Positions 289 to 60,823 of a DNA stretch of 64,000 bases are shown here, one piece after another. Position 1 is the stretch's first letter. Each line of letters opens with the position of its first letter. This DNA is from an uncultured bacterium. GTDB lineage: Bacteria > Muiribacteriota > Ozemobacteria > Ozemobacterales > Ozemobacteraceae. Both the position numbers and the translations under genes were made by a program. The notes under the pieces were generated by a model. That model was not told where the DNA came from, made no database searches, and was given only the letters and a program-made list of their open reading frames with translations. The stretch is from the NCBI GenBank assembly GCA_937949615.1, contig CALEDQ010000018.1:12161-76160 (forward strand). Reading direction: 5' to 3'.

Positions 289-330
289 AATGCTTTGCTG
301 AAAGCTGCTTGTGAAAATCAGGTTGAATAT

Positions 331-525
331 GCCTGAATTTCATATCATTACCAGCCATGAAACCGGGGCCTTATAAAACCTTGCATCAGTTGCCCTGATT
401 GTTATATCGTTCTTTAAACAGCCGATTGCCGCATTGAATTGTCACGGCTTACAGAAATAACCGAGGGGCAGCGTAAAAATGACAGTTGCATCTGCAGAGA
501 TTTTACAGCAAAGAGCCGCAGTATG
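331..525 (+). repeat. Direct repeat copy A (promoter+leader cassette), roughly 80-85% identical to 9131-9335
   Basis: Seen in sequence: gcctgaatttca...cttgcatcagttgccctgattgttatatcg...cttacagaaataaccgaggggcagcg...gacagttg...cagagattttacagcaaagagcc aligns with 9131-9335. Confidence 0.8.
381..408 (+). promoter_or_regulatory. sigma70-like promoter inside repeat copy A (-35 TTGCAT, 16-nt spacer, -10 TATATC)
   Basis: TTGCAT at 381-386 and TATATC at 403-408. The same hexamers and spacing are conserved in copy B (9182-9209). Located about 115 nt upstream of the hsdR ATG. Confidence 0.5.
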
Positions 526-2904
526 AGCAAAAAGCAGCTCTCAGAACGCGATATCTGCACCAAATTCATTACCCCCGCGCTCGAAAAAGCCGGCTGGGAC
601 ATCGCAACTCAGGTGCGCGAAGAGTTTCCCATTACCAACGGCCGCATTATAGTTCGCGGCAAAATGCACACCCGCGCCAAAAATAAAAGGGCCGACTACG
701 TGCTCTTCTACAAGCCTGGTATTCCGATTGCCGTGATCGAGGCCAAAGACAACAATCATTCTGTCGGCGACGGCATGCAGCAGGCCCTCGGCTATGCCGA
801 AATGCTGCAGGTGCCCTTCGTTTTCAGCAGCAATGGTGATGCCTTTCTGTTTCATAATGCCATGACCACCGGAAAAACCGAGCAGGAAATCAGTCTCGAC
901 CAGTTTCCTGCCCCCGATCATCTCTGGAGTCTTTTGAAGAGCGGCAAAGCCATCGATTCTGACCAGGAAGCCCTGATAACCCAGGATTACTACAGCGACG
1001 GCGGCAACAAGACACCGCGCTACTACCAACTGCTGGCCATCAATAAAACCATCGAAGCAATCGCTCAGGGAAAAGACCGCATATTGCTGGTCATGGCGAC
1101 CGGCACCGGCAAAACGTTCACGGCTTTTCAGATCATCTGGCGCCTCTGGAAATCAAAAGCGAAAAAGCGCATTCTCTTTCTCGCCGACCGCAACGTGCTT
1201 GTCGACCAGACCATGACCAACGACTTCAAGCCCTTTGGCCCGGCAATGACCAAGATTCAGAAACGCCAGGTCAACAAGTCGTTCGAAATCTATCTTTCGC
1301 TGTATCAGGCCGTCACCGGCACCGAGGAAGAGAAAAACATCTACAAACAGTTCAGCCCCGGCTTTTTCGACCTGGTCGTCGTCGACGAGTGTCACCGCGG
1401 CAGTGCCGCTGAAGACTCGAACTGGCGCCAGATTCTCGAATATTTTTCCTCGGCCACCCAGATCGGTCTGACTGCGACTCCCAAAGAAACGAAAGACGTT
1501 TCCAACATCGATTATTTTGGTGAGCCAATCTACACCTACTCTCTCAAACAGGGTATCGAAGACGGCTTTCTGGCGCCTTACAAGGTTGTCCGTATCGATA
1601 TCGACAAAGACCTCGAAGGCTGGCGGCCGAAAAAAGGCATGACCGATAAAAACGGCAACCTGATAGAAGATCGCATTTTCAACCTCAAAGACATGGATCG
1701 CACGCTCGTTCTCGAAAAACGCACCGAACTGGTCGCGGCCAAAATCAGCGAGTTTCTGCGCAATACCAGCCGGTTCGACAAAACCATCGTCTTCTGCGAC
1801 AACATCGATCATGCCGAACGCATGCGCCAGGCGCTCGTCAACGAAAACGCCGACCTGGTCGCCGAAAATTCAAAATATGTCATGCGCATTACCGGCGATA
1901 ACGAAGAGGGCAAGGTCGAACTCGACAACTTCATTTTTCCCGAGTCGCGCTACCCGGTCATCGCAACCACTTCGAAGCTGATGAGCACCGGCGTCGATGC
2001 GCAAACCTGCAAACTGATCGTTCTCGACCAGCATATTCAGTCGATGACCGAATTCAAGCAGATAATCGGGCGCGGCACCCGCATAAATGAAGATTTCAAC
2101 AAGTATTTCTTCACGATCATGGATTTCAAAAAGGCGACTGAACTGTTCGCCGACAAAGATTTCGACGGCGACCCGGTTTCGATCTATAACCCCAGGCCCG
2201 GGCAGCCGGTAACCCCGCCCGATGATGAAGAAACCACAACTGGCGACGCTTACCCGCCCGGCGAAGAGAACATTGCAGGCGGCGGCGTTGCCGACGATTA
2301 CAGCGGCAACGGTGGCGGCCTCGAAGACGGGCAATCAGGGGCTGCCAGAAAATACTACGTCAACAACGTCGAAGTTAAGGTTTCGTCAGAGCGCGTGCAA
2401 TATTTCGATGCCAGCGGCAAACTCATCACCGAATCGCTGAAAGACTACACCCGCAAAACTCTCAGCCAGGAATTTTCAAGCCTCGACGACTTTCTCAGCC
2501 GCTGGAACAGCAGCGAGAAGAAGAAAACCATCATCGAAGAACTCGCCCGCGAGGGTGTCTTTTTCGAAGCTCTGGCCGAAGAGATCGGCAAAGACCTCGA
2601 CCCGTTCGACATCGTCTGCCACGTAGCCTGGGATATGCCGCCCCTGTCGCGCAAAGAGCGCGCCGAGAACGTTAAAAAGAAAAACTATTTCACGAAATAT
2701 GGGGAAAAGGCCCGCCGGGTTCTCGTTGCACTGCTTGACAAGTATGCCGACGAAGGCGTGACTCATATCGAAGAAACCCAGATTCTGACTGTAGACCCCT
2801 TCAGTCGGATCGGTACGCCTGTCGAAATCATCAGAGATTTCGGCAGCCTCGAAAACTACCGGCAGGCGGTTCTTGAACTCGAACAGGCCCTCTACTGCGC
2901 CTGA
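523..2904 (+). CDS. hsdR: Type I restriction enzyme R subunit (HsdR)
   Basis: Begins [26 protein letters not shown] (classic HsdR N-terminal nuclease region). Helicase motifs VMATGTGKT and [10 protein letters not shown] (DEAH). Annotated from ATG 523 rather than ORF start 439, because 439-522 lies inside the repeat/leader. RBS-poor, but ATGA-overlapped by a leader uORF. Confidence 0.9.
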
Positions 2905-2922
2905 TTTAACGGAGAAAACGCA

Positions 2923-4374
2923 ATGTCTATCACCACCCTCATCAAAACCATTCAGGACATCATGCGCAAAGACGTCGGCGTTGACGGCGATGCCCAGAGA
3001 ATCAGCCAGATGGCCTGGTTGCTTTTTCTCAAAATTTTCAGCGACAAGGAAGCCGAATGGGAACTGACTGTCAGCGGCTATAAATCGCCACTGCCGTCGA
3101 GGTTCCGCTGGGCGAACTGGGCCGGCAACCCCGAAGGCATAACCGGCGAGGAACTGATCGACTTCGTTAACAACAATCTTTTTCCGGCGCTCAAAAAGCT
3201 TGCCACCACTGCCGGCGTCAGCGAACAGGGCAAGGTCGTCGGCAGCGTCTTCGAAGATGCCTACAACTACATGAAATCAGGCACCCTGCTGCGTCAGGTC
3301 ATCAACACCATCGAAGAAAACTTCGACTTCAATTCTTCAGCTGACCGGCACCTGTTCAACGATATCTACGAAAAAATTCTGGCTGACCTGCAGTCAGCCG
3401 GCAATGCCGGCGAATATTACACGCCCCGCGCCGTCACGCAGTTCATGGTCGACATCATCGATCCGCAGCTCGGCGAGACGGTTCTCGACCCGGCCTGCGG
3501 CACCGCGGGTTTTCTGACCAGCACCATCGAGCATCTGCAGAAGCAGGTAAAGACTCCCGATGACCGCAAATGTATCGCCACCTCGATCAACGGCGTCGAA
3601 AAAAAGCCGATGCCGCACATGCTGGCAGTTACGAACGTCATGTTGCATGGTATCGATGTTCCGAGCAGAATCAGACACGACAACACCCTGACCAGGCCGC
3701 TCAAAGATTATGGCCCGCGCGACCGTGTCGACATCGTCATCACCAACCCGCCATTTGGCGGCATGGAAGAAGACGGAATCGAAAACAATTTTCCGAAAAA
3801 ATATCAGACCCGCGAAACGGCCGACCTGTTCATGGCGCTGATTATGCACCTTCTCAAACCTGATACGGGCAGGGCCGCCGTGGTTCTTCCCGACGGCTTT
3901 CTCTTCGGCGAAGGGGTTAAAACGACGCTCAAACGCGAGCTTCTCGAAGAATTCAATCTGCATACGATTGTACGGCTGCCCAAGGGCGTTTTCAGCCCCT
4001 ATACCGGCATCAATACGAACATTCTCTTTTTCGAAAAGGGAAAACCGACGCAGCATGTCTGGTTTTTCGAACACCCCTACCCTGAAGGGTACAAGTCGTA
4101 TTCGCGGTCAAAGCCGCTGACCATTCAGGAATTCGACCGTGAAAAAGCCTGGTGGAACAATCGCAAAACCACCGAACACGCCTGGAAAGTGCCGGTCGAA
4201 GAAATCGTCGCCCGCAATTACAATCTCGACTGCAAAAACCCGCATGTAACCGAAGTAAATCATCGTGACCCCGAAGAGCTGATGGCCGAATATCAACAGA
4301 CAGTCGCCCGGTTAAAAGCCGTGCAGCAGGCTCTCAAAGCCGAGCTGATCGCCTGTCTCGGAGACAAGACATGA
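2923..4374 (+). CDS. hsdM: Type I RM N6-adenine DNA methyltransferase subunit (HsdM)
   Basis: HsdM N-terminal domain (KDVGVDGDAQRISQMAWLLFLKIF), SAM motif LDPACGTAGFL and catalytic NPPFG. RBS GGAGA 8 nt upstream. Confidence 0.93.
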   Translation: MSITTLIKTIQDIMRKDVGVDGDAQRISQMAWLLFLKIFSDKEAEWELTVSGYKSPLPSRFRWANWAGNPEGITGEELIDFVNNNLFPALKKLATTAGVSEQGKVVGSVFEDAYNYMKSGTLLRQVINTIEENFDFNSSADRHLFNDIYEKILADLQSAGNAGEYYTPRAVTQFMVDIIDPQLGETVLDPACGTAGFLTSTIEHLQKQVKTPDDRKCIATSINGVEKKPMPHMLAVTNVMLHGIDVPSRIRHDNTLTRPLKDYGPRDRVDIVITNPPFGGMEEDGIENNFPKKYQTRETADLFMALIMHLLKPDTGRAAVVLPDGFLFGEGVKTTLKRELLEEFNLHTIVRLPKGVFSPYTGINTNILFFEKGKPTQHVWFFEHPYPEGYKSYSRSKPLTIQEFDREKAWWNNRKTTEHAWKVPVEEIVARNYNLDCKNPHVTEVNHRDPEELMAEYQQTVARLKAVQQALKAELIACLGDKT

Positions 4375-4447
4375 GTATCTGCAGATTTGTTACTCTGACT
4401 GAGAATTTGAAAGACCTGTTTGTGCAAGAGCCTCTTGCACAAATATT

Positions 4448-4681
4448 GTGCCGATGAAATGCGCATATTGTGCTGAAAATTCAGAAGAAACTGTGGAAAA
4501 AATTATTCAGGCCATTAAAAATGACCCCTGCATAACTATTGAAAAGTTGAGCCAGATAACAGAGTTATCGACAAGGGGCATTGAATGGAATCTGAAAAAG
4601 CTCAAGGAAGCCGGTCGCATAACAAGAGTCGGGCCAAGAAAGGGCGGACACTGGAAAGTTCTGAATCCGGAAAATGAATAA
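4448..4681 (+). CDS. Small winged-helix DNA-binding protein (wHTH, 77 aa) embedded between hsdM and hsdS
   Basis: Motif ...ITIEKLSQITELSTRGIEWNLKKLKEAGRITRVGPRKGGHWKV resembles C-terminal wHTH modules of Fic/AlbA-type regulators. Its stop overlaps the hsdS ATG (ATGAATAA). Confidence 0.5.
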   Translation: MPMKCAYCAENSEETVEKIIQAIKNDPCITIEKLSQITELSTRGIEWNLKKLKEAGRITRVGPRKGGHWKVLNPENE

Positions 4682-6380
4682 AGAAACACGCAAGTTGCTT
4701 GATAAACACTTCGAAACTGCTTTTGATACGCCCGACGGCATAAAGAAGCTGCGTGAGCTGATTCTGACTCTGGCCATGCGGGGCAGACTCGTGCCACAAG
4801 ACCAGAACGATCAGCCGGCCAGCGAACTGTTAAAAGAAATCGCCGCCGAAAAAGACCGCCTGATCAAAGAAGGCAAACTCAAACCGCAAAAACCCCTGCC
4901 TCCAATCGACCCCAAAGAAATCCCCTATCAGCTTCCAAAAGGTTGGGAATGGGTTAGATTGCAAAACGCTTTTGATGTTCGCGATGGAACGCATGATACG
5001 CCTAAATATACTGTTTCAGGCTTTCCATTAATTACCAGTAAAAATCTCTATACCGGAAGACTTAGTTTTGAAGACGTGAAGTTCATTTCGGAGCATGATC
5101 ATAATCGAATAAAGGAACGTTCTAGAGTAGATCTTGGTGACATTCTTTTTGCCATGATTGGTAGTATTGGCAATCCAGTTATAGTGGAATGTGAGCATGA
5201 GTTTTCAATAAAAAATGTGGCTCTTTTCAAGTTTTATAAGGCAAACACACCGGAAAGATTGTTTTTACATAACTTTTTGCTATCCTCTCAAACCGCGATG
5301 AAAGCAATCTCATCTGGAGCTGTGCAAAGCTTTGTTTCTTTAAATTTTATTAGAAATTATTTATTTCCGCTACCGCCGCTTGCTGAGCAAAAGCGTATTG
5401 TGGCGCGGGTTGAGCAGTTGATAGCGCGTTGTGATGAGCTTGAGAAGCTGCGGGCGGCGAGAGACGAAAAACGGCTCGAAACGCATGCGGCGGCGCTGAA
5501 TGCGCTGTTTGCTGCCGCTGACAGCGGCGATTTCAGCACTGCCTGGAAATTCATCAGCCGCAATTTCGACGAACTGTATACGGTGAAAGAAAACGTCGCC
5601 GAACTGCGCAAAGCCATTCTGCAACTGGCCGTCATGGGCAGACTCGTGCCCCAGGACCCGAACGACCAGCCCGCCAGCGAACTGCTAAAAGAAATCGCCG
5701 CCGAAAAAGCCCGCCTGATCAAAGAAGGCAAACTCAAACCACAAAAACCCCTGCCTCCAATCGACCCCAAAGAAATCCCTTATAAGCTTGCAAAAGGTTG
5801 GGAATGGGTAAGGTTTGATCAATTAATTGATCAACGCTTTCCTATTTCCTACGGGGTTCTTGTTCCCGGTCCAGATACCGAAGATGGTGTTCCATTTGTA
5901 AGAATTGAGGATCTTACAATCAAGAACCCCAAAGAAAAACCTGGAAAAAGAATTGGGCAAGACATTGCATCTAACTATGAACGCACAAAACTAGAAGGGG
6001 GAGAGATTTTAATGGGTGTCGTCGGAAGCATCGGAAAACTGGGCATTGCACCAGAAAGTTGGAAGGGAGCTTATATAGCAAGAGCAGTATGCCGAATATT
6101 TCCATCTTCACAAGTTGATAAGAAATATATTTTATGGATTCTTCAAAGCAATTTCATGCAAACTTGTTTTGCTAGTGAAACAAGGACTCTTGCCCAACCA
6201 ACACTAAATATTGGGCTCATAAGGGCTGCGCTAACTCCTTTGCCGCCACTTGAGGAGCAAAAGCGGATTGTAGCGCGGGTTGAGCAGTTGATGGCATTGT
6301 GCGATGGTCTCGAACAGAGTATTGCCGCTGCTGACGGCAGTCGGGCGGCTCTTCTCGATTCACTGATGGCAAATGTATGA
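4674..6380 (+). CDS. hsdS: Type I RM specificity subunit (HsdS) with two target-recognition domains
   Basis: Two AT-rich target-recognition domains (TRDs) separated by duplicated conserved helices: RGRLVPQD..NDQPASELLKEIAAEK..RLIKEGKLKPQKPLPPIDPKEIPY twice, and PLPPL(A/E)EQKRIVARVEQL twice. This is the standard circular HsdS architecture. Confidence 0.9.
   Translation: MNKETRKLLDKHFETAFDTPDGIKKLRELILTLAMRGRLVPQDQNDQPASELLKEIAAEKDRLIKEGKLKPQKPLPPIDPKEIPYQLPKGWEWVRLQNAFDVRDGTHDTPKYTVSGFPLITSKNLYTGRLSFEDVKFISEHDHNRIKERSRVDLGDILFAMIGSIGNPVIVECEHEFSIKNVALFKFYKANTPERLFLHNFLLSSQTAMKAISSGAVQSFVSLNFIRNYLFPLPPLAEQKRIVARVEQLIARCDELEKLRAARDEKRLETHAAALNALFAAADSGDFSTAWKFISRNFDELYTVKENVAELRKAILQLAVMGRLVPQDPNDQPASELLKEIAAEKARLIKEGKLKPQKPLPPIDPKEIPYKLAKGWEWVRFDQLIDQRFPISYGVLVPGPDTEDGVPFVRIEDLTIKNPKEKPGKRIGQDIASNYERTKLEGGEILMGVVGSIGKLGIAPESWKGAYIARAVCRIFPSSQVDKKYILWILQSNFMQTCFASETRTLAQPTLNIGLIRAALTPLPPLEEQKRIVARVEQLMALCDGLEQSIAAADGSRAALLDSLMANV
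4773..4957 (+). repeat. Intragenic direct repeat in hsdS (copy 1 of conserved-region repeat, about 92% identical to 5633-5813)
   Basis: Seen in sequence. Encodes the conserved HsdS helix. Such repeats are a substrate for TRD reassortment. Confidence 0.85.
5633..5813 (+). repeat. Intragenic direct repeat in hsdS (copy 2)
   Basis: Aligns with 4773-4957. A second shorter pair lies at 5368-5445 / 6238-6320. Confidence 0.85.
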
Positions 6381-6397: not shown

Positions 6398-7303
6398 ATG
6401 AATTACAAACGAAACCATAAATTTCCGAGCCGGTCCAGTTTCTGGGATGCGGTGAATACTTTCGGCGAAGATATGGTTTATCGCCGCAACGATCCGCCGA
6501 TAAAGCCTGAATTCCAGATTTTTCTTGAAACCGAAACTCATTATATGATCTGCGACCTGCGCCTGCGCGACAAATTGACCGATGCAGAACATCTAAAGAA
6601 GCTCGACGAAGAAGTATTTAAATTGACCGAACATAGAATCAACGCGGTCAGACGCATCAACCCTGACGGCCGCGCCGAATACATATACAAAAGGCCGAAT
6701 GGCGTAATTCTGACGCCTGACTTTCATTTCGACACCTATGTTAAATTCTGCTTCAATTTCCGTGATTACGTTAAACTGGTCTACTGCTCCAACAAAAAAG
6801 AAACGGGTGATGAGTTCAATAAAAATTTCCACTCTTTCTTCTGCAGATGGTTCACCGACTCGCGCGGCAAGGAGCTCAAATCGGTCTACTGTGAACAACA
6901 GTGGTTTCCGGATGTTAAAAAGTGGCTGCTCAAAAAAAAGCAGAACCCGGCTTATTCGGTGCCACACTCAGAATTCAAAGACACCCCGATTGAAGGCCGG
7001 TTAGAGGGCATTCTGTTCAAAAACGGGATTGCATACACCAAGCAGGCTGAATTTTTTCAGCACGAAATGAAACTCACTGTTCCAGACTTTCTGCTTGAAA
7101 AGCAGAAAATTGCAATTTACTGCGATGGCACTGAGTTTCACAAAGACACCCAGGCCATCATCCGCGACAAAGTGCAGGATAGAAGGCTGCAAATCAATGG
7201 CTACATGGTCCTGAGATTTTCAGGTTCCGAAATATTGGGCGATATCGCGCTCTGCGAGCGCGATATTCTCGACGCGATAAAGACAAGAGAATCAAAAAGC
7301 TGA
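6398..7303 (+). CDS. Uncharacterised protein with C-terminal DUF559 / Vsr-like PD-(D/E)XK endonuclease-type domain
   Basis: C-terminus IAIYCDGTEFHKDTQAIIRDKVQDRRLQINGYMVLRFSGSEI matches the DUF559 signature (xDGxxH...RD..R...L...G..VLRF). The N-terminal roughly 200 aa has no recognisable family. Begins 18 nt after the hsdS stop. Confidence 0.6.
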   Translation: MNYKRNHKFPSRSSFWDAVNTFGEDMVYRRNDPPIKPEFQIFLETETHYMICDLRLRDKLTDAEHLKKLDEEVFKLTEHRINAVRRINPDGRAEYIYKRPNGVILTPDFHFDTYVKFCFNFRDYVKLVYCSNKKETGDEFNKNFHSFFCRWFTDSRGKELKSVYCEQQWFPDVKKWLLKKKQNPAYSVPHSEFKDTPIEGRLEGILFKNGIAYTKQAEFFQHEMKLTVPDFLLEKQKIAIYCDGTEFHKDTQAIIRDKVQDRRLQINGYMVLRFSGSEILGDIALCERDILDAIKTRESKS

Positions 7304-7376
7304 CTCAGTTTTCGCGTTCGCCTGGCGCCGCCTGATAGCCGCTCGGAACTTTACGTAGTATATTCAGACAGGCAGG

Positions 7377-8369
7377 ATGGGACTGGAGGTAAGAAATGCC
7401 GTTTCCCGTAGTTGTCCACAAAGAGGGCAAAAGCTCGTTCGGGCCAGGTTTATGAAAGATTACAGACTGATTTTTGAAGTAGTGCATGGCAGTCAGGCTT
7501 TTGGCCTGGATGGCCCGGGCTCAGACCTCGATTTGAAAGGCGTGATTATCGGGCCGGCGTTCTGGTATTTTGGTTTTTTAGAAAGCCCTGAACAGCTCGT
7601 TCTTAACAAGGATCACACGCTTTTCGAACTCCGGAAATTTTTCAGACTGGCAATAGATGCCAACCCGACTGCAATCGAGATGCTGTGGGCTCCCCAGAAC
7701 TGCATCAGAGAGTGCTCTCCAATGGCCGAAAAGCTGCTGAGTGCCAGAGAAAAGTTTTTATCTCTCAAAGTGGCAGACAGTTTCGGCAAATACGCCCTCT
7801 CACAGCTGCGCCGCATCAAAACTCATCGCAGATGGCTGCTTGAACCGCCCAAAACACAGCCACAAAGAGAGGAATTCAATCTGCCCGGCAAACCCGTCTT
7901 TTCAGATGACCAGATTGGTGCGGCTGAATCATTGATTGAAAGCGGCAAGTTGACACATGCCGATCTGCCGCCAAATTTCATGCTGATACTCGACCGTGAA
8001 AGAAGTTATCGTGCCGCCATCAAGGAATGGCAGCAGTTTCAAACCTGGCAGAAAGAGAGAAACCCGGCGAGAGCAAAGCTGGAGAAAGAATTCGGCTATG
8101 ATACAAAGCACGCCTTGCACCTTGTCAGGCTCTTAAGAATGGCACTCGAGATATTAATTTCAGGTGAAGTAATCGTTCGCAGACCAGACCGAGAAGAGCT
8201 TCTGGCAATCAAACAGGGAACCTGGAAATTCGACCAGCTAATTGAATACGCCGAGTCGATGAATCAGAAAATCCTTGAGGCCAGAAACCGCAGCAGTCTG
8301 CCTGAGTTTCCCGACAATGAAAGTCTCAATCTATTATGCACAGAAATTCTGAGAGGTTGTTTTGCATGA
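7377..8369 (+). CDS. Pol-beta superfamily nucleotidyltransferase, paralog 1 (alternative start ATG 7452)
   Basis: hGS-x9-DhD motif: VHGSQAFGLDGPGSDLDLKGV. C-terminal helical domain. Paralogous to the next ORF. The stop overlaps the next start (ATGA). Confidence 0.65.
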   Translation: MGLEVRNAVSRSCPQRGQKLVRARFMKDYRLIFEVVHGSQAFGLDGPGSDLDLKGVIIGPAFWYFGFLESPEQLVLNKDHTLFELRKFFRLAIDANPTAIEMLWAPQNCIRECSPMAEKLLSAREKFLSLKVADSFGKYALSQLRRIKTHRRWLLEPPKTQPQREEFNLPGKPVFSDDQIGAAESLIESGKLTHADLPPNFMLILDRERSYRAAIKEWQQFQTWQKERNPARAKLEKEFGYDTKHALHLVRLLRMALEILISGEVIVRRPDREELLAIKQGTWKFDQLIEYAESMNQKILEARNRSSLPEFPDNESLNLLCTEILRGCFA

Positions 8370-9136
8370 TTGAAAAAAAACAGATAGAGCTCGGCCAGGA
8401 ATTCGTTTCCAGAAATTTTGACAAGGGAAAGCTGCTGCTGGTTGCGGTAACTGGCAGTCATTTTTATGGGTTTCCGGCTCCGGACAGCGATCTGGATCTG
8501 AAAGGCATTCACGCGGCCCCTACCAGGCAGATACTTGCACTCGAAAAACCTGCGTCGGCACACAATGTTGAGGAAATGTGGCGAAACTGTCTCTGCGATT
8601 TTTCCAGCAATGAAATAGAACAGGCTTTGCGACTTCTGATAAAGGGAAACGGCAACATGCTCGAGAGAATATTTTCCCCTTATCAGCTTTTTGAAACAGA
8701 AGAAGCGACGCGATTGAAAGAAATAAAGACCGCTTATCTTTCACAACGATTCTTTCATCATTACACCGGCTTTTTTCAGAAAAAATGCGCTGAGTTTGCG
8801 AAGAGCGATTTTTACCTCATCAAGCCTTTGCTCTATATCTACAGAGTCGCTCTGACCGGGATTCATCTTCTGAAAACGGGCGAGGTCATTGGTGATGTGC
8901 GAAAACTGGCGCCAGAATACGGCTTTTCTGAGGTTGATGAGCTGATAAAAATCTACTCTGCGACTTCTGAAAAAAAGTCGCTTGATAAAGCTTCTGCAAG
9001 CCAGTTCGTTGCAAGATGGCCAGAGCTTGAGAACAAGCTGAACGATGCCCTCAGCACCAGCTGTCTGCCGGAAGTTCCGGGCGACCCTGATGCCTGTTCC
9101 GACCTGCTGGTTGAAATCAGATTGAAATCTGCCTGA
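8366..9136 (+). CDS. Pol-beta superfamily nucleotidyltransferase, paralog 2
   Basis: VTGSHFYGFPAPDSDLDLKGI motif, similar layout to paralog 1 (RlaP-like minimal NTase fold by recollection). Start chosen at MIEKKQ with GAGAGG RBS. Confidence 0.65.
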   Translation: MIEKKQIELGQEFVSRNFDKGKLLLVAVTGSHFYGFPAPDSDLDLKGIHAAPTRQILALEKPASAHNVEEMWRNCLCDFSSNEIEQALRLLIKGNGNMLERIFSPYQLFETEEATRLKEIKTAYLSQRFFHHYTGFFQKKCAEFAKSDFYLIKPLLYIYRVALTGIHLLKTGEVIGDVRKLAPEYGFSEVDELIKIYSATSEKKSLDKASASQFVARWPELENKLNDALSTSCLPEVPGDPDACSDLLVEIRLKSA

Positions 9137-9335
9137 ATTTCAGGTCATTGCTGGCCTTGAAAACTGAGGTCTTATTCAATCTTGCATCAATTAACCTGAT
9201 TGTTATATTGTTTTTTAACAGCCTATTTTACCCCATTGATATTGTAACGACTTACAGAAATAACCGAGAGGTCGCGTGAGGATGGCAGTTTTTTTTATCA
9301 CCAGAGACTTTGCAGAAGAAAGCCAAACAACCTTT
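9131..9335 (+). repeat. Direct repeat copy B (promoter+leader cassette)
   Basis: Aligns with 331-525. Lies between the NTase2 stop and the tcmP start. Confidence 0.8.
9182..9209 (+). promoter_or_regulatory. sigma70-like promoter inside repeat copy B (-35 TTGCAT, 16-nt spacer, -10 TATATT)
   Basis: Hexamers conserved in position with copy A. About 160 nt upstream of tcmP. Confidence 0.5.
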
Positions 9336-9371: not shown

Positions 9372-10493
9372 ATGACAGAAAAACTTCACAGCAAGCCATT
9401 TGATGAGGGAACCAGACTGAAATTAAATATTTTCCGAAAGTGCTTTCGTGAATGGCTGCCGGTTTTTATTCACAATCCGAAGATTGATAAAATTTTCGTT
9501 TATGATTTCTTTGCCGGGCCAGGCCGTGATTCGGAGGGCACGCCCGGCAGTCCTCTTATATTGCTGGAAGAGGCGCGCGGCGCTGATTTACAGTATTGCA
9601 AAACCGGAAAAATCAAAGATGTTATTTTTGGTTTCAATGACAAAAACGAGTCAGAGACGCTTAAACAAAACATTGCCGCGTATTTCAATCAGTGCTGCCA
9701 AAGGAATTGTAAAAAGAAAGAATGTCTCTACGAAAAGAAATGTCATTGTGCAAATCTTGATTTTAAAAGCCTTTTTGCCAGCGAGAACCTGAAAAAAATA
9801 CTGGCAAACAAATCTTTTGCCAAATTCATCCTGCTTGATCAATACGGTTTCAGCCAGGTTGATGAGGAAGTTTTCAGAAAACTCGCTGGTTCCCCAATGA
9901 CCGATTTTATTTTTTTTATAGCTTCATCTTTTGTCGACCGGTTCAAAGACCACGAATACACCAGAAAGTATCTCAATACAGAAAAGATTGATTTCTCTTC
10001 GGTAAAACCTGTTCAAAGGCACGGTTTAATCGCTGATTACTTTGCATCACTGGTTAACAAACCTGAATTCTATCTACATCATTTCACAATAAGAAAGGGC
10101 TCCAATCATTATGGGCTGATTTTTGGAACAAATCACACATACGGAATGGAGAAATTTCTTAAAGTCTGCTGGGAAGAAGATACATTTGCCGGCGAATCAA
10201 ATGACAACAAATGGGGTGATGAGCAGGAAGGAAGCCTGTTTTTTGGAATTGAGCCCCCGAAAAAAATTGAAGCAGTCAAGGCTGAGCTTAGGGAAATGCT
10301 ACTTCAAGGTAAAATCGACAACAATATCAACGGGCTTAAAACGGCAATGAGAAAGAGATGCCGGCCTAAAGTTTTTGTTGAAGTAGTCAGGCAGCTTGAA
10401 AAAGAAAAGAAAATAGAAAGAATCGGTGAAACGGTAAATAATCGTGCTGAAAGGATACACGAAATTCCTGAATACAAAATCAGGCCACTTTAG
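9372..10493 (+). CDS. tcmP: Three-Cys-motif partner protein (TcmP family)
   Basis: N-terminus ...KLNIFRKCFREWLPVF...VYDFFAGPGRDSEGTPGSPLILLEE matches my recollection of the TcmP family (TIGR04474). That family is invariably encoded next to a Gp37/Gp68 protein, as here. Unusual Cys-rich insert CCQRNCKKKECLYEKKCHC. AT-rich codon usage. Confidence 0.65.
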   Translation: MTEKLHSKPFDEGTRLKLNIFRKCFREWLPVFIHNPKIDKIFVYDFFAGPGRDSEGTPGSPLILLEEARGADLQYCKTGKIKDVIFGFNDKNESETLKQNIAAYFNQCCQRNCKKKECLYEKKCHCANLDFKSLFASENLKKILANKSFAKFILLDQYGFSQVDEEVFRKLAGSPMTDFIFFIASSFVDRFKDHEYTRKYLNTEKIDFSSVKPVQRHGLIADYFASLVNKPEFYLHHFTIRKGSNHYGLIFGTNHTYGMEKFLKVCWEEDTFAGESNDNKWGDEQEGSLFFGIEPPKKIEAVKAELREMLLQGKIDNNINGLKTAMRKRCRPKVFVEVVRQLEKEKKIERIGETVNNRAERIHEIPEYKIRPL

Positions 10494-10525
10494 GGTATAC
10501 TTATTGAGAGTTTAAAGGGGTTTAA

Positions 10526-11242
10526 ATGGCAAGCAACAGCACAATTGAATGGACTCAAATCACCTGGAACCCGGTTACCGGGTGCACAAAAATCAGCTCC
10601 GGATGCAAAAACTGCTATGCTGAACGTATGGCCCGACGCCTGCATCTGATGCGCAGTAAAAGATACATAAACGAATTCAAGGTTACTCTACACGAAGATC
10701 TTCTTGATTTCCCCAAAAAACTACGAAGCGGGAAAAGGATTTTTGTTAATTCAATGAGTGATCTTTTTCATGAAGATGTTCCGCTCGAATTCATTCAGAA
10801 AGTTTTTCAAACAATGAATGAGTGCCGACAACACGTCTTTCAAGTTCTTACAAAAAGAAGCAAAAGACTTGCTGAACTTGCTGGAAAGCTTTCCTGGTCA
10901 GAAAACATCTGGATAGGCGTAACCGTTGAAGACAACACCAATAAAGACAGAATTGCCGACCTTAGAGCTGTTCCGGCCAAAGTCAGGTTTATTTCATTTG
11001 AGCCGTTGATTTCCGAAATAAAAAAACCCGATTTAACCGGCATTAACTGGATAATAGTCGGTGGCGAATCTGGCCCTGGAGCCAGACCCATTGTCAAAGA
11101 ATGGGTTGAAGCCCTGCAGAGAAACGCCCAGCAGTTTGATATTCCGTTCTTTTTCAAGCAATGGGGCGGAACAAACAAGAAAAAAAGCGGCAAGCTGTTA
11201 AATGGTCAGATGTTTCAGGAAAGCCCGGCTTTCGCCCTCTGA
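10526..11242 (+). CDS. Phage Gp37/Gp68 family protein (DUF5131), three-Cys motif
   Basis: Canonical N-terminus MASNSTIEWTQITWNPVTGCTKISSGCKNCYAE (IEWT..TWNP..GC...S.GC..CYA). Good RBS GGGG. Confidence 0.8.
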   Translation: MASNSTIEWTQITWNPVTGCTKISSGCKNCYAERMARRLHLMRSKRYINEFKVTLHEDLLDFPKKLRSGKRIFVNSMSDLFHEDVPLEFIQKVFQTMNECRQHVFQVLTKRSKRLAELAGKLSWSENIWIGVTVEDNTNKDRIADLRAVPAKVRFISFEPLISEIKKPDLTGINWIIVGGESGPGARPIVKEWVEALQRNAQQFDIPFFFKQWGGTNKKKSGKLLNGQMFQESPAFAL

Positions 11243-11364: not shown

Positions 11365-12606
11365 TTATTTGCTGGCGGGGTTGGCGACGCGGCCCATGAA
11401 GAGGATGCTGCCGGTCGAGTTGTCGCGGACCAGGAAGATGAAGGGATGGTCAGCCTTGAACACCGGGTCCATGCTGATCGATTTGGTGGCCATTTCGACG
11501 GCGGTGGCGGCGGCGGCTTCGGTGCCTTCTTCGTTCACTTCGACGAAGGCCTTGTGCTTGATCTGCGAGATCCATAATTTGCCTTTTGGCCAGCCCATGC
11601 CGCTGAAATCAGCGACGTCCGGGGTGAAAGCGTCTTTCATGCCGAGGTCGGTGCAGGTCGGAACCAGATCATAACCGGTTTCGAGCTTGAATTTTGGCAG
11701 ATACAGCTTCACATTTTCCTCGGAGGCAGAGTCCAGTTCTGCCAGCCATGCTGCGATTTTTTCGGAGCTCAGGTCTTTTTCGAGACCGGCGAGGCCGTCG
11801 ACTTTCTGCGGCAGCACTGCGATCATTGCCAGCGATTTTCCCTTGTAAGGCATGGCGATGACCTGAAAGTCGTCTTTTTCGATGAGCTTGAAGCTGCCCT
11901 TCTGATACATGAACGGCACATTGATATTTTCTGTTGCAGACAGTCTGAAAGGGGCTTCTTTAGTCTGCTTTTCGTCGAACTGGCTTTCCCAGATGCCTTT
12001 GAAATAAATGGCATTCAAAAGAACGCAGACTGAATTTGGATCAAGCTTTTCGAGGATTTCTTCGATTTTGCCCTCGGTTTTTGTTTTTACCCAGCCGTTG
12101 ATCTTTTCGAGGTCGCCCGCGAACAGTTCAGCCGCGTAGTTTTTCTGCAGCAGGGCCTTGAATTCTTCGCTCACATCGCCGCCGGTGAGGCAGAGACCGT
12201 TGGCGATATTGAGCTTCTGACCGTCACTGTTGGCCACTGAAGCGAGTTTCTCGTTGAGCTGTCTGAACGCGTCGTGCAGCGGTTCCTGGTCGAGACCGAA
12301 AGACAAAGCTGCCTGCATTTCTGCGGCAGTATTTTCGCGGGCACCGGCATAGGTCATACCGAGCGCTGAAGAAACGCTGAATGGCGAGAAGAAGACGTTG
12401 CCACCGGCCTTGCCCAGCTGCTGATAAAGCTTAACGGCAAAGGCGCTGTTGCCTTTTACCAGGGGGGTCAGGGTAGAATCAGCCTGTTGATCTGTTGTTG
12501 TCATGGGAGCAGAACAGCAGTCTGATTCTGCTGATACTGGAGAAGCGGACGCTGCCAGTATGACGGCACAAATTACAGCACAGAATAAAACGGTGAGTCG
12601 GTTCAT
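11365..12606 (-). CDS. Serpin (serine protease inhibitor) with signal peptide
   Basis: Serpin fold hallmarks: NVFFSPFSVSSALGMTYAGA, hinge/reactive-centre-loop region EEGTEAAAATAVEMA, C-terminal PFIFLVRDNSTGSILFMGRVANP. Start placed at MNRLTVLFCAVICAV (signal peptide), not ORF start 12795. Confidence 0.85.
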   Translation of the reverse strand: MNRLTVLFCAVICAVILAASASPVSAESDCCSAPMTTTDQQADSTLTPLVKGNSAFAVKLYQQLGKAGGNVFFSPFSVSSALGMTYAGARENTAAEMQAALSFGLDQEPLHDAFRQLNEKLASVANSDGQKLNIANGLCLTGGDVSEEFKALLQKNYAAELFAGDLEKINGWVKTKTEGKIEEILEKLDPNSVCVLLNAIYFKGIWESQFDEKQTKEAPFRLSATENINVPFMYQKGSFKLIEKDDFQVIAMPYKGKSLAMIAVLPQKVDGLAGLEKDLSSEKIAAWLAELDSASEENVKLYLPKFKLETGYDLVPTCTDLGMKDAFTPDVADFSGMGWPKGKLWISQIKHKAFVEVNEEGTEAAAATAVEMATKSISMDPVFKADHPFIFLVRDNSTGSILFMGRVANPASK

Positions 12607-12854
12607 GGTATTTCCTTTCAAGGTCATGAGGGGCAATCCCGTAAGATTGTTTTCTGCTGACAATATAGTCCTATATGAGCTTACAGACAATATAATCGTT
12701 ACAACCGACCAAAAAATCGGATAATTCCGAAAATGGTTTGTATCGGTTATAATGGTTGAGAAAATTTTGTTGCCAGTCAGAATCAGATGCGGCAATGATT
12801 GATTGTCAGTGCAAAACAGCTTTTAAGCAGCTTTTTAATAGAAAGGGAAGATTA

Positions 12855-56178: not shown

Positions 56179-57486
56179 TCAATTCAGAGTCATGGCCGCG
56201 TGATAACAGCCACCGCCGTTCCACCAGGCCGAGAAACTGTCAAACGATCTGACCTGCGGCACCGGGTCTTTGGCGGGGTCATTATAATAAATATTTCCAC
56301 TGTCATCTACCCCGGTAATGACGACATAATGATTGTAGACATTGGCGATGACCGGCTTGCCGGCTTTTATTTGTTCACGCACCCACGACAGGCCAACACT
56401 GTAATACCATTTCGCATTCGGGAAACCATTGGCCCTGGCTCCGGTGAGCATACCGGCATGCGAGGTGCCCGCCGCACCGGTCGAGCCACAGGTATACCAG
56501 AGCGAAGAGGCCAGAGCGCCGGCGTTCTGCTTGTTATGATAGGCAAGCGCCATGCCGAGAGAGGTCGGACCACAGGCAGACCATGGGTATGGGCATTTAA
56601 CATAACCCTGACACTGCTGCGGCACCGGCAGAACGACTTTGCCATTTGCCCCGCTAGTCGGAGTTGCCGGGGCACTGTTACCCGATGAAGGCTTAGAAGA
56701 CGAAACATAGCTGGCATGACAATAAACGATGCGCCCGTTCCAGCTGACTCTGTACCAGTCGCCTTCTTTACCGACGATATCGATCTTCGTGCCATAGTTG
56801 AAGGTGGTGAGAATCGAGCCCCAGGGGGCACTTCTGACATTGAGAACATCAGCAGTGACATAACCGGCGCTCGATGACGGGGCCGGCGTGCTGGCCGGCT
56901 GGGCCGGTGCCGGCGATGGAGCACTGTCGGCATTGATATAGGCAGAATGACAATAGCCAACCGTGCCATTGTAGCTGACCCGGTACCATTCGCCTTCCTG
57001 GCCAAGAATCGACACTCTGGCACCGTTGGCGAATGAACCGACTATGGTTCCCCAGGGTCCGGTGCGGACATTCAGACCCGGCACGGCATTGACAGTGCCA
57101 CCACGGGCAGCTGATGCAGCAGGCGCGGCGTTCTGAACTATATATGCCGAATGGCAGTAACCGACCATGCCATTGTAGCTGACCTTGTACCACTCGCCCT
57201 CCTGACCAATCACACTGACGCTGGCGCCGTTTCCGAATGAGCCGATGATCGCCCCCCACGGACCGTTACGGATATTGAGGCCAGGGATAGCCTGGACTGT
57301 GCCGCTAAAAGCTCCACCCAGACCGGATGGAACAGTAGAAGCTTCGGTCTGGCTCTTTCCCTGGTCAGAGATAACTACAGAGCTCTGTCCGAAGACGTCT
57401 GCAGCTGTCTGGGCTTTCAGCAGACCTGATCCGGCAAAAATCAACAGGGGCAGCAACAGTAAAATAAAGAAATTTCTGGGTTTCAT
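56179..57486 (-). CDS. Secreted protein with three SH3b repeats and C-terminal C39-like (papain-fold) peptidase domain
   Basis: Three roughly 70-aa repeats (GLNIRNGPWGAIIGSFGNGASVSVIGQEGEWYKVSYNGMVGYCHSAYI and two variants). C-terminus CGPTSLGMALAYHNK...HYVVITGVDDSGNIYYNDP (Cys/His of the C39_2-type fold). Confidence 0.7.
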   Translation of the reverse strand: MKPRNFFILLLLPLLIFAGSGLLKAQTAADVFGQSSVVISDQGKSQTEASTVPSGLGGAFSGTVQAIPGLNIRNGPWGAIIGSFGNGASVSVIGQEGEWYKVSYNGMVGYCHSAYIVQNAAPAASAARGGTVNAVPGLNVRTGPWGTIVGSFANGARVSILGQEGEWYRVSYNGTVGYCHSAYINADSAPSPAPAQPASTPAPSSSAGYVTADVLNVRSAPWGSILTTFNYGTKIDIVGKEGDWYRVSWNGRIVYCHASYVSSSKPSSGNSAPATPTSGANGKVVLPVPQQCQGYVKCPYPWSACGPTSLGMALAYHNKQNAGALASSLWYTCGSTGAAGTSHAGMLTGARANGFPNAKWYYSVGLSWVREQIKAGKPVIANVYNHYVVITGVDDSGNIYYNDPAKDPVPQVRSFDSFSAWWNGGGCYHAAMTLN

Positions 57487-57714: not shown

Positions 57715-57782
57715 AAATTCATAACGCAGCGATCAATCAAACCAAAAGTTCGAAATCAATACTTCAAACAGGAGTTTCTAAA

Positions 57783-60764: not shown

Positions 60765-60823
60765 CATTTTGCAACGCAGCGATGCGGAAAATCTGAAATC
60801 AATACTTCAACAGGAGTTTTAAA

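What the first reader, a model, noticed from the sequence alone, without database searches (positions are those of the whole stretch)
9372..11242. TcmP (three-Cys-motif partner) + Gp37/Gp68 (DUF5131) two-gene module in a defence island - candidate uncharacterised system
The second gene has the unmistakable Gp37/Gp68 N-terminus (IEWT..TWNP..GC..SxGCxxCYA). The first matches the family that, from established annotation knowledge (TIGR04474/PF07505 pairing), is always its partner. The pair has no assigned biochemical function. Here it is expressed from the duplicated promoter-leader, sits next to a Type I RM system, and has markedly AT-rich codon usage (horizontal acquisition). TcmP carries a FAGPGR(D) motif reminiscent of SAM-methyltransferase motif I and an unusual Cys7 insert (CCQRNCKKKECLYEKKCHC). 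Gp37 has a Cx6Cx2C three-Cys cluster that could ligate an Fe-S cluster. Together this suggests a nucleic-acid-modifying or phage-defence role.
Basis: partly seen in the sequence, partly recalled or inferred. Interest (0 to 1): 0.8.

Follow-up and report, generated by a model that had tools for sequence, protein, structure and literature searches.

The report
Methyltransferase-like plus radical-SAM gene pair
Two tightly linked genes, one encoding a methyltransferase-shaped protein with a DNA-binding tail and the other an iron-sulfur "radical SAM" enzyme resembling a DNA-repair lyase, sit in a bacterial immunity island; the pair is real and biochemically unexplored, but it is already listed as an untested candidate phage-defence system.

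Summary
ORFs 9372-10493 and 10526-11242 encode TcmP (TIGR04474, 116.7 bits against a cutoff of 53) and a DUF5131/Gp37-Gp68 protein (PF07505, 310.6 bits). PADLOC already lists the pair as candidate system PDC-M30 (E 3e-103 and 9e-109). I found no experimental study of it.

New here:
- TcmP models as a class-I SAM-methyltransferase fold. Its nearest solved structures are RlmJ, Trm1 and TYW4, and it has a C-terminal winged helix.
- DUF5131 models as a radical-SAM barrel. Its nearest solved structure is spore photoproduct lyase, and its Cx6Cx2C triad is invariant.
- In 79 of 79 related loci DUF5131 directly follows TcmP. Actinobacteria keep the pair in a convergent layout.
- The reverse rule fails: 181 phage records carry DUF5131 but only 13 carry a TcmP.
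- Restriction-modification genes are concentrated in the slot immediately upstream (23%, falling to about 0% six or seven genes upstream), usually on the same strand.
- The duplicated promoter-leader is real (305-517 and 9104-9324, 76% identical).
- GC3 is low (0.40 and 0.45 against a window mean of 0.57).

Best reading (confidence about 0.4): a two-enzyme, SAM-dependent module that modifies nucleic acid, probably DNA, riding on immunity islands. DNA repair and RNA modification remain live rivals. Verdict: a new member of a known, uncharacterised kind.

The parts
9104..9324 (+). Copy 2 of a duplicated promoter/5'-leader element upstream of tcmP. By eye it holds TTGCAT (9182-9187), a 16-nt spacer and TGtTATATT (-10 at 9204-9209).
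   Evidence: 76% identical over 222 nt to 305-517. The scan called a different promoter-like site inside it, 9215-9243. No Rfam match. RNA folding is no better than shuffles (z +0.5). The small uORF start is lost in a close relative.
9372..10493 (+). tcmP, 373 aa: a class-I SAM-methyltransferase-fold protein with a C-terminal winged helix (PADLOC PDC-M30A).
9504..9530 (+). TcmP motif I, the SAM-binding loop D45-F-F-A-G-P-G-R-D53.
   Evidence: D45, F47, A48, G49 and G51 are invariant across two clades sharing 16-20% identity.
9597..9749 (+). Clade-specific Cys-rich segment of TcmP (C76 to C126), a probable metal-binding knuckle.
   Evidence: C76 47/47, C108 47/47, C118 46/47, C113 35/47. C109, C124 and C126 are not conserved. 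The segment is absent from the actinobacterial clade. Metal binding is inferred.
9837..9848 (+). TcmP motif-IV position, D156-Q-Y-G159, at the end of strand 4.
   Evidence: D156 and G159 are invariant. Position 157 is Q or P and position 158 is Y or F. The phage Easley relative reads DPFG. This deviates from the canonical (D/N/S)PP(Y/F/W).
10224..10490 (+). TcmP C-terminal winged-helix domain, about residues 285-373.
   Evidence: Model secondary structure is H-H-H-strand-strand. Weak PF22560 GMT-wHTH hits in 7 of 47 members. PF22560 is precomputed on most actinobacterial TcmPs.
10526..11242 (+). DUF5131 / Gp37-Gp68 gene, 238 aa: an SPL-like radical-SAM-fold enzyme (PADLOC PDC-M30B/M41B).
10583..10615 (+). 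Three-Cys motif C20-x6-C27-x2-C30, the predicted [4Fe-4S] ligands in the loop after strand 1.
   Evidence: Invariant in 42/42 homologues. Cluster binding is inferred from the radical-SAM fold.
305..517 (+). Copy 1 of the duplicated promoter/leader, upstream of hsdR (ATG at 523).
   Evidence: A metagenome scan found the element only in these two contexts in close relatives.
523..6380 (+). Context: Type I restriction-modification operon, hsdR 523-2904, hsdM 2923-4374, hsdS 4674-6380.
   Evidence: Pfam ResIII, EcoEI_R_C, HSDR_N; N6_Mtase, HsdM_N; Methylase_S.
6398..9136 (+). Context: three co-directional genes between the RM operon and tcmP, namely a DUF559/Vsr-like endonuclease (6398-7303) and two RlaP-family nucleotidyltransferases (7377-8369, 8336-9136).
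   Evidence: Pfam hits. No significant PADLOC hits. Found next to the pair only in this lineage, 1 of 79 loci.

Best explanation
The two genes form one horizontally acquired, co-expressed two-enzyme module of the catalogued but untested PDC-M30 type. It most likely carries out SAM-dependent chemistry on a nucleic-acid base, with DNA the favoured substrate.

Shown:
- TcmP has a class-I methyltransferase fold with a strictly conserved SAM-binding loop, an acidic residue at the end of strand 2, a conserved D-x-(Y/F)-G at the motif-IV position, and a C-terminal winged helix.
- DUF5131 has a radical-SAM barrel with an invariant Cx6Cx2C triad, and it is structurally closest to spore photoproduct lyase, an enzyme that works on DNA.
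- The two genes are inseparable from the TcmP side, in two different gene layouts.
- The module sits preferentially at the 3' end of restriction-modification operons and in mobile-element or prophage cassettes.

Inferred:
- The two proteins form a complex.
- TcmP, the faster-evolving partner, binds the polymer through its winged helix and presents or methylates a flipped base.
- DUF5131 uses a [4Fe-4S] cluster and SAM to make a 5'-deoxyadenosyl radical for a second step on the same base, giving a modified base.
- In the cell this marks or protects DNA in the setting of restriction-based immunity.
For: - Family and candidate-system matches.
- High-confidence models.
- TcmP's nearest solved structures are all enzymes that methylate nucleic-acid bases: RlmJ, Trm1 and TYW4.
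- Motif I, the strand-2 acidic residue and D156/G159 are conserved across clades sharing 16-20% identity.
- Winged-helix signal in the C-terminus.
- SPL-like radical SAM enzymes are known to repair DNA (SPL) and to build DNA hypermodifications (phage M6 gp53; PMC8989533).
- 79 of 79 loci have DUF5131 immediately downstream on the same strand, usually with a gap of -3 to 56 nt.
- Actinobacterial pairs are convergent with overlapping 3' ends.
- TcmP diverges faster than DUF5131: 62% against 80% identity in Ca. Rifleibacterium amylolyticum, and about 51% against 61% in the alignments.
- RM-like genes occupy 23% of the first upstream slot, falling to 0% at six and seven genes upstream. 71 of 77 upstream genes are co-directional, and 14 RM genes end within 33 nt of tcmP.
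- Neighbours are rich in defence-type domains.
- Both proteins are basic, with pI 8.9 and 9.6.
Against: - Nothing here demonstrates a substrate, a complex or an activity.
- Motif IV (DQYG) is not the canonical amino-methyltransferase (D/N/S)PP(Y/F/W), so methyl transfer to a base is not assured.
- Profile comparison with RlmJ is not significant, and profile searches find no solved relative for either protein. The links are at fold level only, with TM-scores of about 0.4.
- TcmP's best structural matches act on RNA, not DNA.
- The module has no nuclease or other reader, so how a modification alone would give immunity is unclear.
- In phages DUF5131 mostly occurs without TcmP: 181 records against 13. 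Other upstream partners are not TcmP, so the radical-SAM enzyme does not need TcmP.
- RM proximity could simply reflect shared residence on mobile islands.
- The M. tuberculosis pair is co-regulated with recA, which points towards repair.
Confidence: 0.4

Rival explanations
1. DNA-repair module. DUF5131 reverses a DNA lesion by radical chemistry, as spore photoproduct lyase does, and TcmP acts as the subunit that recognises the lesion and flips the base. Mobile elements and phages carry the pair as cargo that protects their own or the host's DNA.
For: - SPL is the top structural match.
- In M. tuberculosis, Rv2735c is co-transcribed with recA-recX (PMC3062782). Its probable BCG orthologue BCG_2748c carries a TcmP domain.
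- Rv2734, Rv2735c, recX and recA form one cluster of genes differentially expressed under mitomycin C (PMC5057432).
- The phiE125 gp37 annotation links DUF5131 to Rv2734.
- DUF5131 is common in phages, which often carry repair genes.
Against: - recA adjacency was absent from three other actinobacterial loci and from the 79 loci surveyed, so it looks lineage-specific.
- A strictly conserved SAM-binding loop in TcmP is not needed merely to recognise a lesion.
- The sharp enrichment of RM genes immediately upstream has no obvious explanation under repair.
- I inferred the Rv2735c/BCG_2748c equivalence from gene numbering and did not verify it by sequence.
Confidence: 0.2
2. RNA-modification module. 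The pair hypermodifies a tRNA or rRNA base, as wybutosine synthesis combines class-I methyltransferases with the radical SAM enzyme TYW1. This could make the host's translation apparatus resistant to, or dependent on, mobile-element factors.
For: - TcmP's nearest structures are RNA enzymes: RlmJ, Trm1 and TYW4.
- In this window two RlaP 'RNA repair pathway' nucleotidyltransferases lie directly upstream.
Against: - SPL outranks all the RNA-modifying radical SAM enzymes.
- The RlaP neighbours occur only in this lineage.
- The sporadic, island-borne, horizontally transferred distribution is unusual for enzymes that modify translation RNA.
- The recurrent context is enzymes that act on DNA, namely RM systems.
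Confidence: 0.15
3. Direct anti-phage effector. The radical SAM enzyme either damages invading nucleic acid by hydrogen abstraction or makes an antiviral small molecule as viperin does. TcmP would act as sensor, targeting subunit or second tailoring enzyme.
For: - PADLOC lists the pair as a defence candidate.
- The neighbourhood is rich in defence genes.
- In Gordonia phage Easley the pair lies between the integrase and the immunity repressor, where prophage-expressed genes sit.
- Radical SAM defence systems exist, for example Ophion (10.1101/2025.09.30.679545).
Against: - There is no nucleotide-binding extension like viperin's, and no sequence-level relationship to it.
- A winged helix plus a methyltransferase fold fits a polymer substrate better than a small molecule.
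- I found no experimental phenotype reported for PDC-M30.
Confidence: 0.1
4. TcmP is not a catalyst. It is a SAM-sensing or DNA-binding regulator or adaptor (winged helix plus a degenerate methyltransferase domain) that controls or targets DUF5131, which carries all the chemistry.
For: - Motif IV is non-canonical.
- DUF5131 works with unrelated partners or alone in most phages.
- The winged helix is compatible with operator binding.
Against: - The SAM-binding loop, the strand-2 acidic residue and D156/G159 are invariant across very distant clades. By contrast, inactive methyltransferase domains lose the Rossmann-loop motif as well as motif IV (criterion from PMC10853773).
- Tight coupling, with gaps of only a few nucleotides, suggests a stoichiometric partner rather than a regulator.
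Confidence: 0.1

Closest known systems
PADLOC phage-defence candidates PDC-M30 (A+B) and PDC-M41 (A+B)
   Same: Both window proteins match the PDC-M30 models end to end (A: E 3e-103; B: E 9e-109), and the genes are adjacent. The PDC-M41B model matches the same DUF5131 protein (E 7e-112). PDC-M41A models also match the phage Easley TcmP over parts of the protein.
   Different: Nothing structural. This is an ordinary member. From my own knowledge, the PDC class is predicted from genomic association and is not experimentally validated. The only papers I found merely list it in surveys.
TIGR04474 (TcmP) / PF07505 (DUF5131, phage Gp37/Gp68) annotated pairing
   Same: Both HMMs pass their cutoffs, and the adjacency rule holds in 79 of 79 loci from the TcmP side.
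   Different: The rule is not symmetric. Most phage DUF5131 genes lack a TcmP and have other neighbours. Actinobacteria use a convergent layout instead of the co-directional one seen here.
Spore photoproduct lyase (SPL, PDB 4fhc)
   Different: Only 10% identity, and no profile-level sequence match. The motif is Cx6Cx2C rather than CX3CX2C. DUF5131 is about 100 residues shorter. SPL works alone, without a methyltransferase-like partner.
Phage M6 gp53, the SPL-like radical SAM isomerase in thymidine hypermodification (PMC8989533)
   Same: It is a precedent for an SPL-like radical SAM enzyme that installs a DNA base modification on a mobile element, working with other tailoring enzymes.
   Different: It has different partners (kinase, aGPT-Pplase, PLP decarboxylase), a canonical CxxxCxxC motif, and a 5-hmdU-derived substrate pathway that is absent here.
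RlmJ, Trm1 and TYW4, class-I methyltransferases acting on nucleic-acid bases; the wybutosine pathway, which combines such enzymes with the radical SAM enzyme TYW1
   Same: These are the top fold matches of TcmP. TcmP shares a D-x-(F/H)-A-G-x-G type motif I and a G-S-P element with RlmJ. From my own knowledge, the wybutosine pathway is a precedent for a methyltransferase and a radical SAM enzyme cooperating on one base.
   Different: hhalign against RlmJ gives probability 1.1%. Motif IV reads DQYG or DPFG, not DPPY. TcmP adds a C-terminal winged helix and, in this clade, a Cys knuckle. Those enzymes are housekeeping RNA modifiers, not island-borne genes.
Radical-SAM-based defence systems: prokaryotic viperins and Ophion
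   Different: The partner sets differ (Ophion has PHP and PRTase proteins; viperins act alone on nucleotides). Those enzymes have canonical cluster motifs, and I detected no sequence relationship.

Membership tests
TcmP (NCBIfam TIGR04474) | Whole-protein HMM score above the curated cutoff | tested here: met
   116.7 bits against cutoff 53, covering profile positions 2-262 of 263.
TcmP (NCBIfam TIGR04474) | Encoded next to a three-Cys-motif protein | tested here: met
   DUF5131 starts 32 nt downstream. The same arrangement holds in 79 of 79 related loci.
DUF5131 / phage Gp37-Gp68 (Pfam PF07505) | HMM score above the gathering threshold, full-length match | tested here: met
   310.6 bits against 28.9, profile positions 1-243 of 243.
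DUF5131 / phage Gp37-Gp68 (Pfam PF07505) | N-terminal three-Cys motif | tested here: met
   C20, C27 and C30 are invariant in 42/42 aligned homologues.
PADLOC PDC-M30 candidate system | Both components A and B present and adjacent | tested here: met
   PDC-M30A E 3e-103 and PDC-M30B E 9e-109; adjacent genes on the same strand.
PADLOC PDC-M30 candidate system | Protects against phage | not testable with these tools
   I found no experimental report. A plaque assay is required.
Radical SAM superfamily | Partial (beta/alpha)6 TIM-barrel core with the Cys loop after strand 1 | tested here: met
Radical SAM superfamily | Canonical CX3CX2C spacing | tested here: not met
   The spacing is Cx6Cx2C. From my own knowledge, variant spacings are known in accepted members, so this does not exclude membership.
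Radical SAM superfamily | Binds [4Fe-4S] and reductively cleaves SAM | not testable with these tools
   Needs UV-vis/EPR and a 5'-deoxyadenosine assay.
Radical SAM mobile pair protein A (TIGR04471, equivalog) | Score above the equivalog cutoff | tested here: not met
   99.6 bits against cutoff 355. It is a relative, not a member.
Spore photoproduct lyase | Sequence-level homology to SPL and the CX3CX2C motif | tested here: not met
   The profile search of PDB sequences finds no SPL. Identity in the structural alignment is 10%, and the Cys spacing differs.
Class-I SAM-dependent methyltransferases | Rossmann-like fold with a glycine-rich motif I and an acidic residue at the end of strand 2 | tested here: met
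Amino (N6-A / N4-C / N2-G) nucleic-acid methyltransferases | Motif IV (D/N/S)-P-P-(Y/F/W) | tested here: not met
   The window reads D156-Q-Y-G. Across the family the pattern is D-(P/Q)-(F/Y)-G.
RlmJ family | Profile-level sequence similarity to E. coli RlmJ | tested here: not met
   hhalign probability 1.1%, with only the PGSPLI stretch aligned. No Pfam methyltransferase family recurs even at E up to 10.

The most novel reading that the evidence does not exclude
TcmP and DUF5131 form a complex that writes, or erases, a previously undescribed radical-derived base modification on DNA. TcmP would be the fast-evolving subunit that targets the DNA and uses SAM. The chemistry would be recruited as a terminal accessory of Type I and Type IIG restriction-modification operons and of prophage immunity cassettes. 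That would make it a bacterial immunity module built on radical SAM DNA chemistry. The mitomycin C co-regulation with recA in M. tuberculosis would then reflect a role in protecting or re-marking DNA after damage.
Probability: 0.3. Interest if true: 0.85.

Novelty: new member of a known kind. Interest (0 to 1): 0.5.

Why it matters
DUF5131/Gp37-Gp68 is a large family. My homologue search hit its ceiling of 8,000 scored candidates, all of them matching, and 181 phage records carry it. It has had a name for many years but has no known reaction.

This analysis gives the TcmP-linked subset a concrete, testable outline:
- a SAM-binding, methyltransferase-fold, winged-helix protein locked to an SPL-like radical SAM enzyme;
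- placement at the 3' end of restriction-modification operons and in prophage lysogeny cassettes;
- co-regulation with recA in M. tuberculosis.

According to the one paper I read on the point (PMC8989533, 2021), SPL and phage M6 gp53 were then the only radical SAM enzymes associated with DNA. A third kind that is widespread in bacterial immunity islands would extend both DNA-modification chemistry and the catalogue of defence or counter-defence mechanisms. The M. tuberculosis pair would also become a candidate DNA-damage-response function.

If the pair instead proves to act on RNA or to have no phenotype, this locus is simply another unvalidated PADLOC candidate.

Tried and rejected
1. Sequence links to solved structures. 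Single-sequence and profile searches of PDB sequences gave only chance hits for both proteins.
2. Homology of TcmP to RlmJ, which I suspected from recalled motifs. I fetched the real E. coli rlmJ, but hhalign gave probability 1.1%. I keep it as a fold-level resemblance only.
3. A hidden Pfam methyltransferase family in TcmP. Scanning all 47 members at E up to 10 gave only weak winged-helix hits.
4. A riboswitch or structured leader in the duplicated 5' region. There is no Rfam match, folding is no better than shuffles, the uORF is not conserved, and the element occurs only in the same two contexts in close relatives.
5. A second TcmP-like domain in the 1,340-aa ORF at 15963-19985. The tblastn hit (E 1e-4) is gappy and gets no hhalign support, probability 0.25%. 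Rejected as chance.
6. phiE125 gp38 and TChen gp65 as divergent TcmPs. Rejected by hhalign and by HMM scans.
7. A universal third gene in the module. Clustering 789 neighbour ORFs found none. The most frequent extra gene, an AlbA_2-HATPase_c_4-wHTH protein, is in 14 of 79 loci.
8. A general recA linkage. It was absent from three other actinobacterial loci.
9. A published functional study under another name. Five literature searches found none. Ophion is a different radical SAM system.
10. Technical dead ends. The first bulk scans exceeded the residue limit, and one script timed out. Both were repeated successfully.
Full report
**Observation.**
- The second ORF matches Pfam PF07505 (DUF5131, phage Gp37/Gp68) over the whole profile, at 310.6 bits against a threshold of 28.9.
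- The quoted motifs are present. The region is AT-rich: GC is 0.40-0.44 against 0.50 for the window, and GC3 is 0.40 and 0.45 against a mean of 0.57 (sd 0.07) for the long ORFs. tcmP is the lowest of the 30 long ORFs.
- The 'duplicated promoter-leader' is real. 9104-9324 is 76% identical over 222 nt to 305-517, which lies upstream of hsdR, whose true start is the ATG at 523.
- Small corrections. The quoted Cys string has six cysteines, not seven. Three genes separate the pair from the Type I RM operon.

**Already catalogued.** PADLOC-DB holds models for exactly this pair. The window proteins match PDC-M30A (E 3e-103) and PDC-M30B (E 9e-109), and the DUF5131 protein also matches PDC-M41B. From my own knowledge, the PDC entries are phage-defence candidates inferred from genomic association and have not been tested. 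Five full-text searches found no functional study. The hits were two P. aeruginosa surveys that list PDC-M30, gene tables that mention TcmP, and RadicalSAM.org. The last files DUF5131 as radical-SAM Megacluster-5-2, beside spore photoproduct lyase at 5-3 (PMC9477430). The locus is therefore a member of a known but uncharacterised kind.

**What the proteins are: TcmP.** Neither protein has a solved relative detectable by sequence, even with profiles. The AlphaFold2 model built on a 47-sequence alignment is confident (pLDDT 90.4, pTM 0.89).
- The last roughly 90 residues form a helix-helix-helix-strand-strand unit. It gives weak winged-helix Pfam hits (PF22560 in 7 of 47 members). The same domain is precomputed on most actinobacterial TcmPs.
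- I aligned this clade with a second clade that shares only 16-20% identity with it and was reached through Gordonia phage Easley gp39. That protein scores 187 bits on TIGR04474 and aligns to the window clade with hhalign probability 96.5%.
- The residues invariant across both clades are D45-x-F-A-G-x-G (motif I), G59-S-P, an acidic residue at position 90 (the end of strand 2), D156 and G159 at the motif-IV position, R190 and W267.
- Motif IV reads D-(P/Q)-(F/Y)-G, which is not the canonical (D/N/S)PP(Y/F/W).
- A direct profile comparison with authentic E. coli RlmJ was not significant. The RlmJ resemblance is therefore structural only.
- The Cys-rich segment belongs to one clade. C76, C108 and C118 are conserved in 46-47 of 47 sequences and C113 in 35 of 47. 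The other three cysteines are private to this window, and the actinobacterial clade lacks the segment entirely. I read it as a structural metal knuckle, which is an inference.

**What the proteins are: DUF5131.** The model (pLDDT 84) is a six-unit strand-helix barrel, with the invariant C20-x6-C27-x2-C30 loop directly after the first strand.
- It relates to TIGR04471, 'radical SAM mobile pair protein A', at 99.6 bits, well below that model's equivalog cutoff of 355.
- A fourth cysteine, C100, is present in 36 of 42 homologues. I did not follow this up.

**Linkage.** A scan of one genome per species returned 173 TcmP relatives, and I kept the best 80 loci.
- In all 79 loci with room downstream, a DUF5131 gene follows TcmP on the same strand. 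The gap is usually -3 to 56 nt, and the one outlier of 332 nt lies beside a disrupted TcmP.
- By record title the hosts are mostly Bacteroidales and other Bacteroidota. Spirochaetes, Akkermansia, Victivallales, a Planctomycetota bacterium, Oscillospiraceae, a Gammaproteobacterium, Ignavibacteria and Zixiibacteriota also appear.
- In Actinobacteria the pair is equally constant but convergent, with overlapping 3' ends. This holds for Gordonia phage Easley, Mycobacterium sp. M26, Rhodococcus hoagii and Actinomadura. Retention of the pairing across a change of layout argues for a functional partnership and not mere operon inheritance.
- TcmP evolves faster than its partner: 62% against 80% identity in Ca. 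Rifleibacterium amylolyticum, and about 51% against 61% in the alignments. That pattern is typical of a specificity subunit.
- The converse rule fails. 181 phage records carry DUF5131. This TcmP finds no phage match, and the actinobacterial type finds only 13 records, almost all Gordonia phages. The genes upstream of DUF5131 in phiE125 and TChen are not TcmPs.
- The TcmP family has 1,760 representatives at E ≤ 1e-3 among 1.84 billion cluster representatives.

**Context.** I called 789 ORFs around the 79 pairs.
- Iterative searches seeded with the window's HsdR, HsdM and HsdS found an RM-type gene in 30 of the 79 loci.
- The positional gradient is sharp. RM-type genes fill 23% of first-upstream genes, 7-14% at positions two and three, 6-9% at four and five, and 0% at six and seven. 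Downstream they fill 7% of the first position and 0-4% of positions two to eight.
- 71 of 77 first-upstream genes are co-directional. 14 RM genes end within 33 nt of tcmP. They include fused Type IIG enzymes of about 1,300 aa, HsdR-like proteins and HsdS.
- Bulk scans of 119 immediate neighbours agree: Eco57I/N6_Mtase 10-11, Methylase_S 8, ResIII 5, Schlafen-AlbA_2/HATPase_c_4 7, and single or double hits to TIR, AbiEii-type AAA, EcoRI and MmeI.
- Other recurring neighbours are tyrosine integrases, PLD-SNF2 nucleases, a Type III Res, a C5 methylase and GIY-YIG-RAMA proteins.
- No third gene is universal.
- The within-locus gradient serves as an internal control. I did not compute a genome-wide baseline.
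- In phage Easley the pair lies between the integrase and the immunity repressor.
- In M. tuberculosis, Rv2735c is co-transcribed with recA-recX (PMC3062782). Rv2734, Rv2735c, recX and recA form one cluster of genes differentially expressed under mitomycin C (PMC5057432). BCG_2748c carries a TcmP domain. Its equivalence to Rv2735c is my inference from gene numbering.

**Mechanism.** What is shown is the anatomy. The substrate and the chemistry are inferred. Both folds point to SAM-dependent work on a nucleic-acid base. SPL-like radical SAM enzymes are known to repair DNA and, in phage M6, to build a DNA hypermodification (PMC8989533).
- I therefore favour, at about 0.4, a two-enzyme DNA-modifying module. 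TcmP would bind the DNA and present or methylate a base, and DUF5131 would perform a radical step.
- Points against: the non-canonical motif IV, the RNA-directed nature of TcmP's nearest structures, the absence of any nuclease or reader in the module, and the fact that DUF5131 does without TcmP in most phages.
- Rivals: DNA repair (0.2, supported by the recA co-regulation), RNA modification (0.15), a direct radical or small-molecule effector (0.1), and a non-catalytic TcmP adaptor or regulator (0.1).

**The duplicated leader.** The element contains a promoter-like TTGCAT-16-TGtTATATT that I read by eye. The scan did not call it, but it did call 9215-9243 within the same element. There is no sign of RNA structure or of a conserved peptide. 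A metagenome scan found it only upstream of tcmP and of hsdR in close relatives. The two copies bracket the whole block of RM, DUF559 and RlaP genes. Copy 1 also retains a degraded remnant of the RlaP2 3' end, so a duplication or recombination event placed the same control region in front of both operons.

**Verdict.** This is an ordinary member of a catalogued but untested candidate system whose enzymology is interesting and now better defined. Interest 0.5; novelty 'new member of a known kind'.

Noticed in passing
window 305-517 and 9104-9324: The two copies of the promoter/leader bracket the whole 8.8-kb block of Type I RM, DUF559 and two RlaP genes. Copy 1 retains a frameshifted remnant of the RlaP2 3' end (KLLVKIRL against DLLVEIRL). 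This suggests a duplication or recombination event put one control region in front of both operons. Short palindromes (TGAAAT...ATTTCA and CAAT-N7-ATTG) could be operator sites.
   Followed up: partly
window 7377-8369 and 8336-9136: Two tandem, overlapping RlaP-family (PF10127, 'RNA repair pathway') nucleotidyltransferase genes lie directly upstream of tcmP. They have no PADLOC match and occur next to the pair only in this lineage.
   Followed up: partly
window 6398-7303: A 301-aa protein with a C-terminal DUF559 / MTES_1575 / Vsr-like endonuclease domain starts 18 nt after hsdS and may be an accessory nuclease of the RM operon.
   Followed up: no
window about 4493-4681 (from L001 5122-5310): A 62-aa ORF with a weak HTH_24 hit is called between hsdM and hsdS in the matching metagenome contig. 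It is a possible controller protein that could act on the duplicated promoter element.
   Followed up: no
window 4761-4960 / 5616-5815 and 5366-5443 / 6236-6313: There are internal direct repeats within hsdS (90% and 78% identical), and hsdS has low GC3 (0.43) compared with hsdR and hsdM (0.68). This is consistent with a two-TRD specificity subunit that may have been swapped in.
   Followed up: no
window 11365-12795 (-): A bacterial serpin (PF00079, E 3e-114) with an N-terminal hydrophobic leader is encoded convergently right after the pair.
   Followed up: no
window 15963-19985 (+): A 1,340-aa ORF has no Pfam hit at all. A weak tblastn similarity to TcmP was checked and rejected as chance.
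   Followed up: yes
L016, L030, L044, L058, L085, L086 and others (first gene downstream of the pair): A protein of about 489 aa with Schlafen-AlbA_2, HATPase_c_4 and Fic-like_C/wHTH domains recurs in 14 of 79 loci. In 10 of them it is the gene immediately downstream of DUF5131. It may be a regulator or an optional third component.
   Followed up: partly
L088 (Gordonia phage Easley 29182-31049), L093, L094, L095: In Actinobacteria and their phages the pair is convergent, with 3' ends overlapping by a few to about 20 nt. In phage Easley it lies in the lysogeny cassette between the integrase and the immunity repressor.
   Followed up: partly
M. tuberculosis Rv2734/Rv2735c (literature only): The mycobacterial pair lies directly downstream of recA-recX. 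Rv2735c is co-transcribed with recA, and both genes fall in the same mitomycin C differentially expressed cluster as recA and recX. I did not verify by sequence that Rv2735c is the TcmP.
   Followed up: partly
window 10823-10825 (DUF5131 residue C100): A fourth cysteine is conserved in 36 of 42 DUF5131 homologues, outside the cluster motif. From my own knowledge, SPL uses a non-cluster cysteine as a hydrogen-atom donor, so this one could matter for catalysis.
   Followed up: no
window 57776-58075 / 60817-61116 and 56936-57099 / 57140-57303: Two further direct-repeat families (300 nt at 88% identity, and 164 nt at 74%) lie far from the finding.
   Followed up: no
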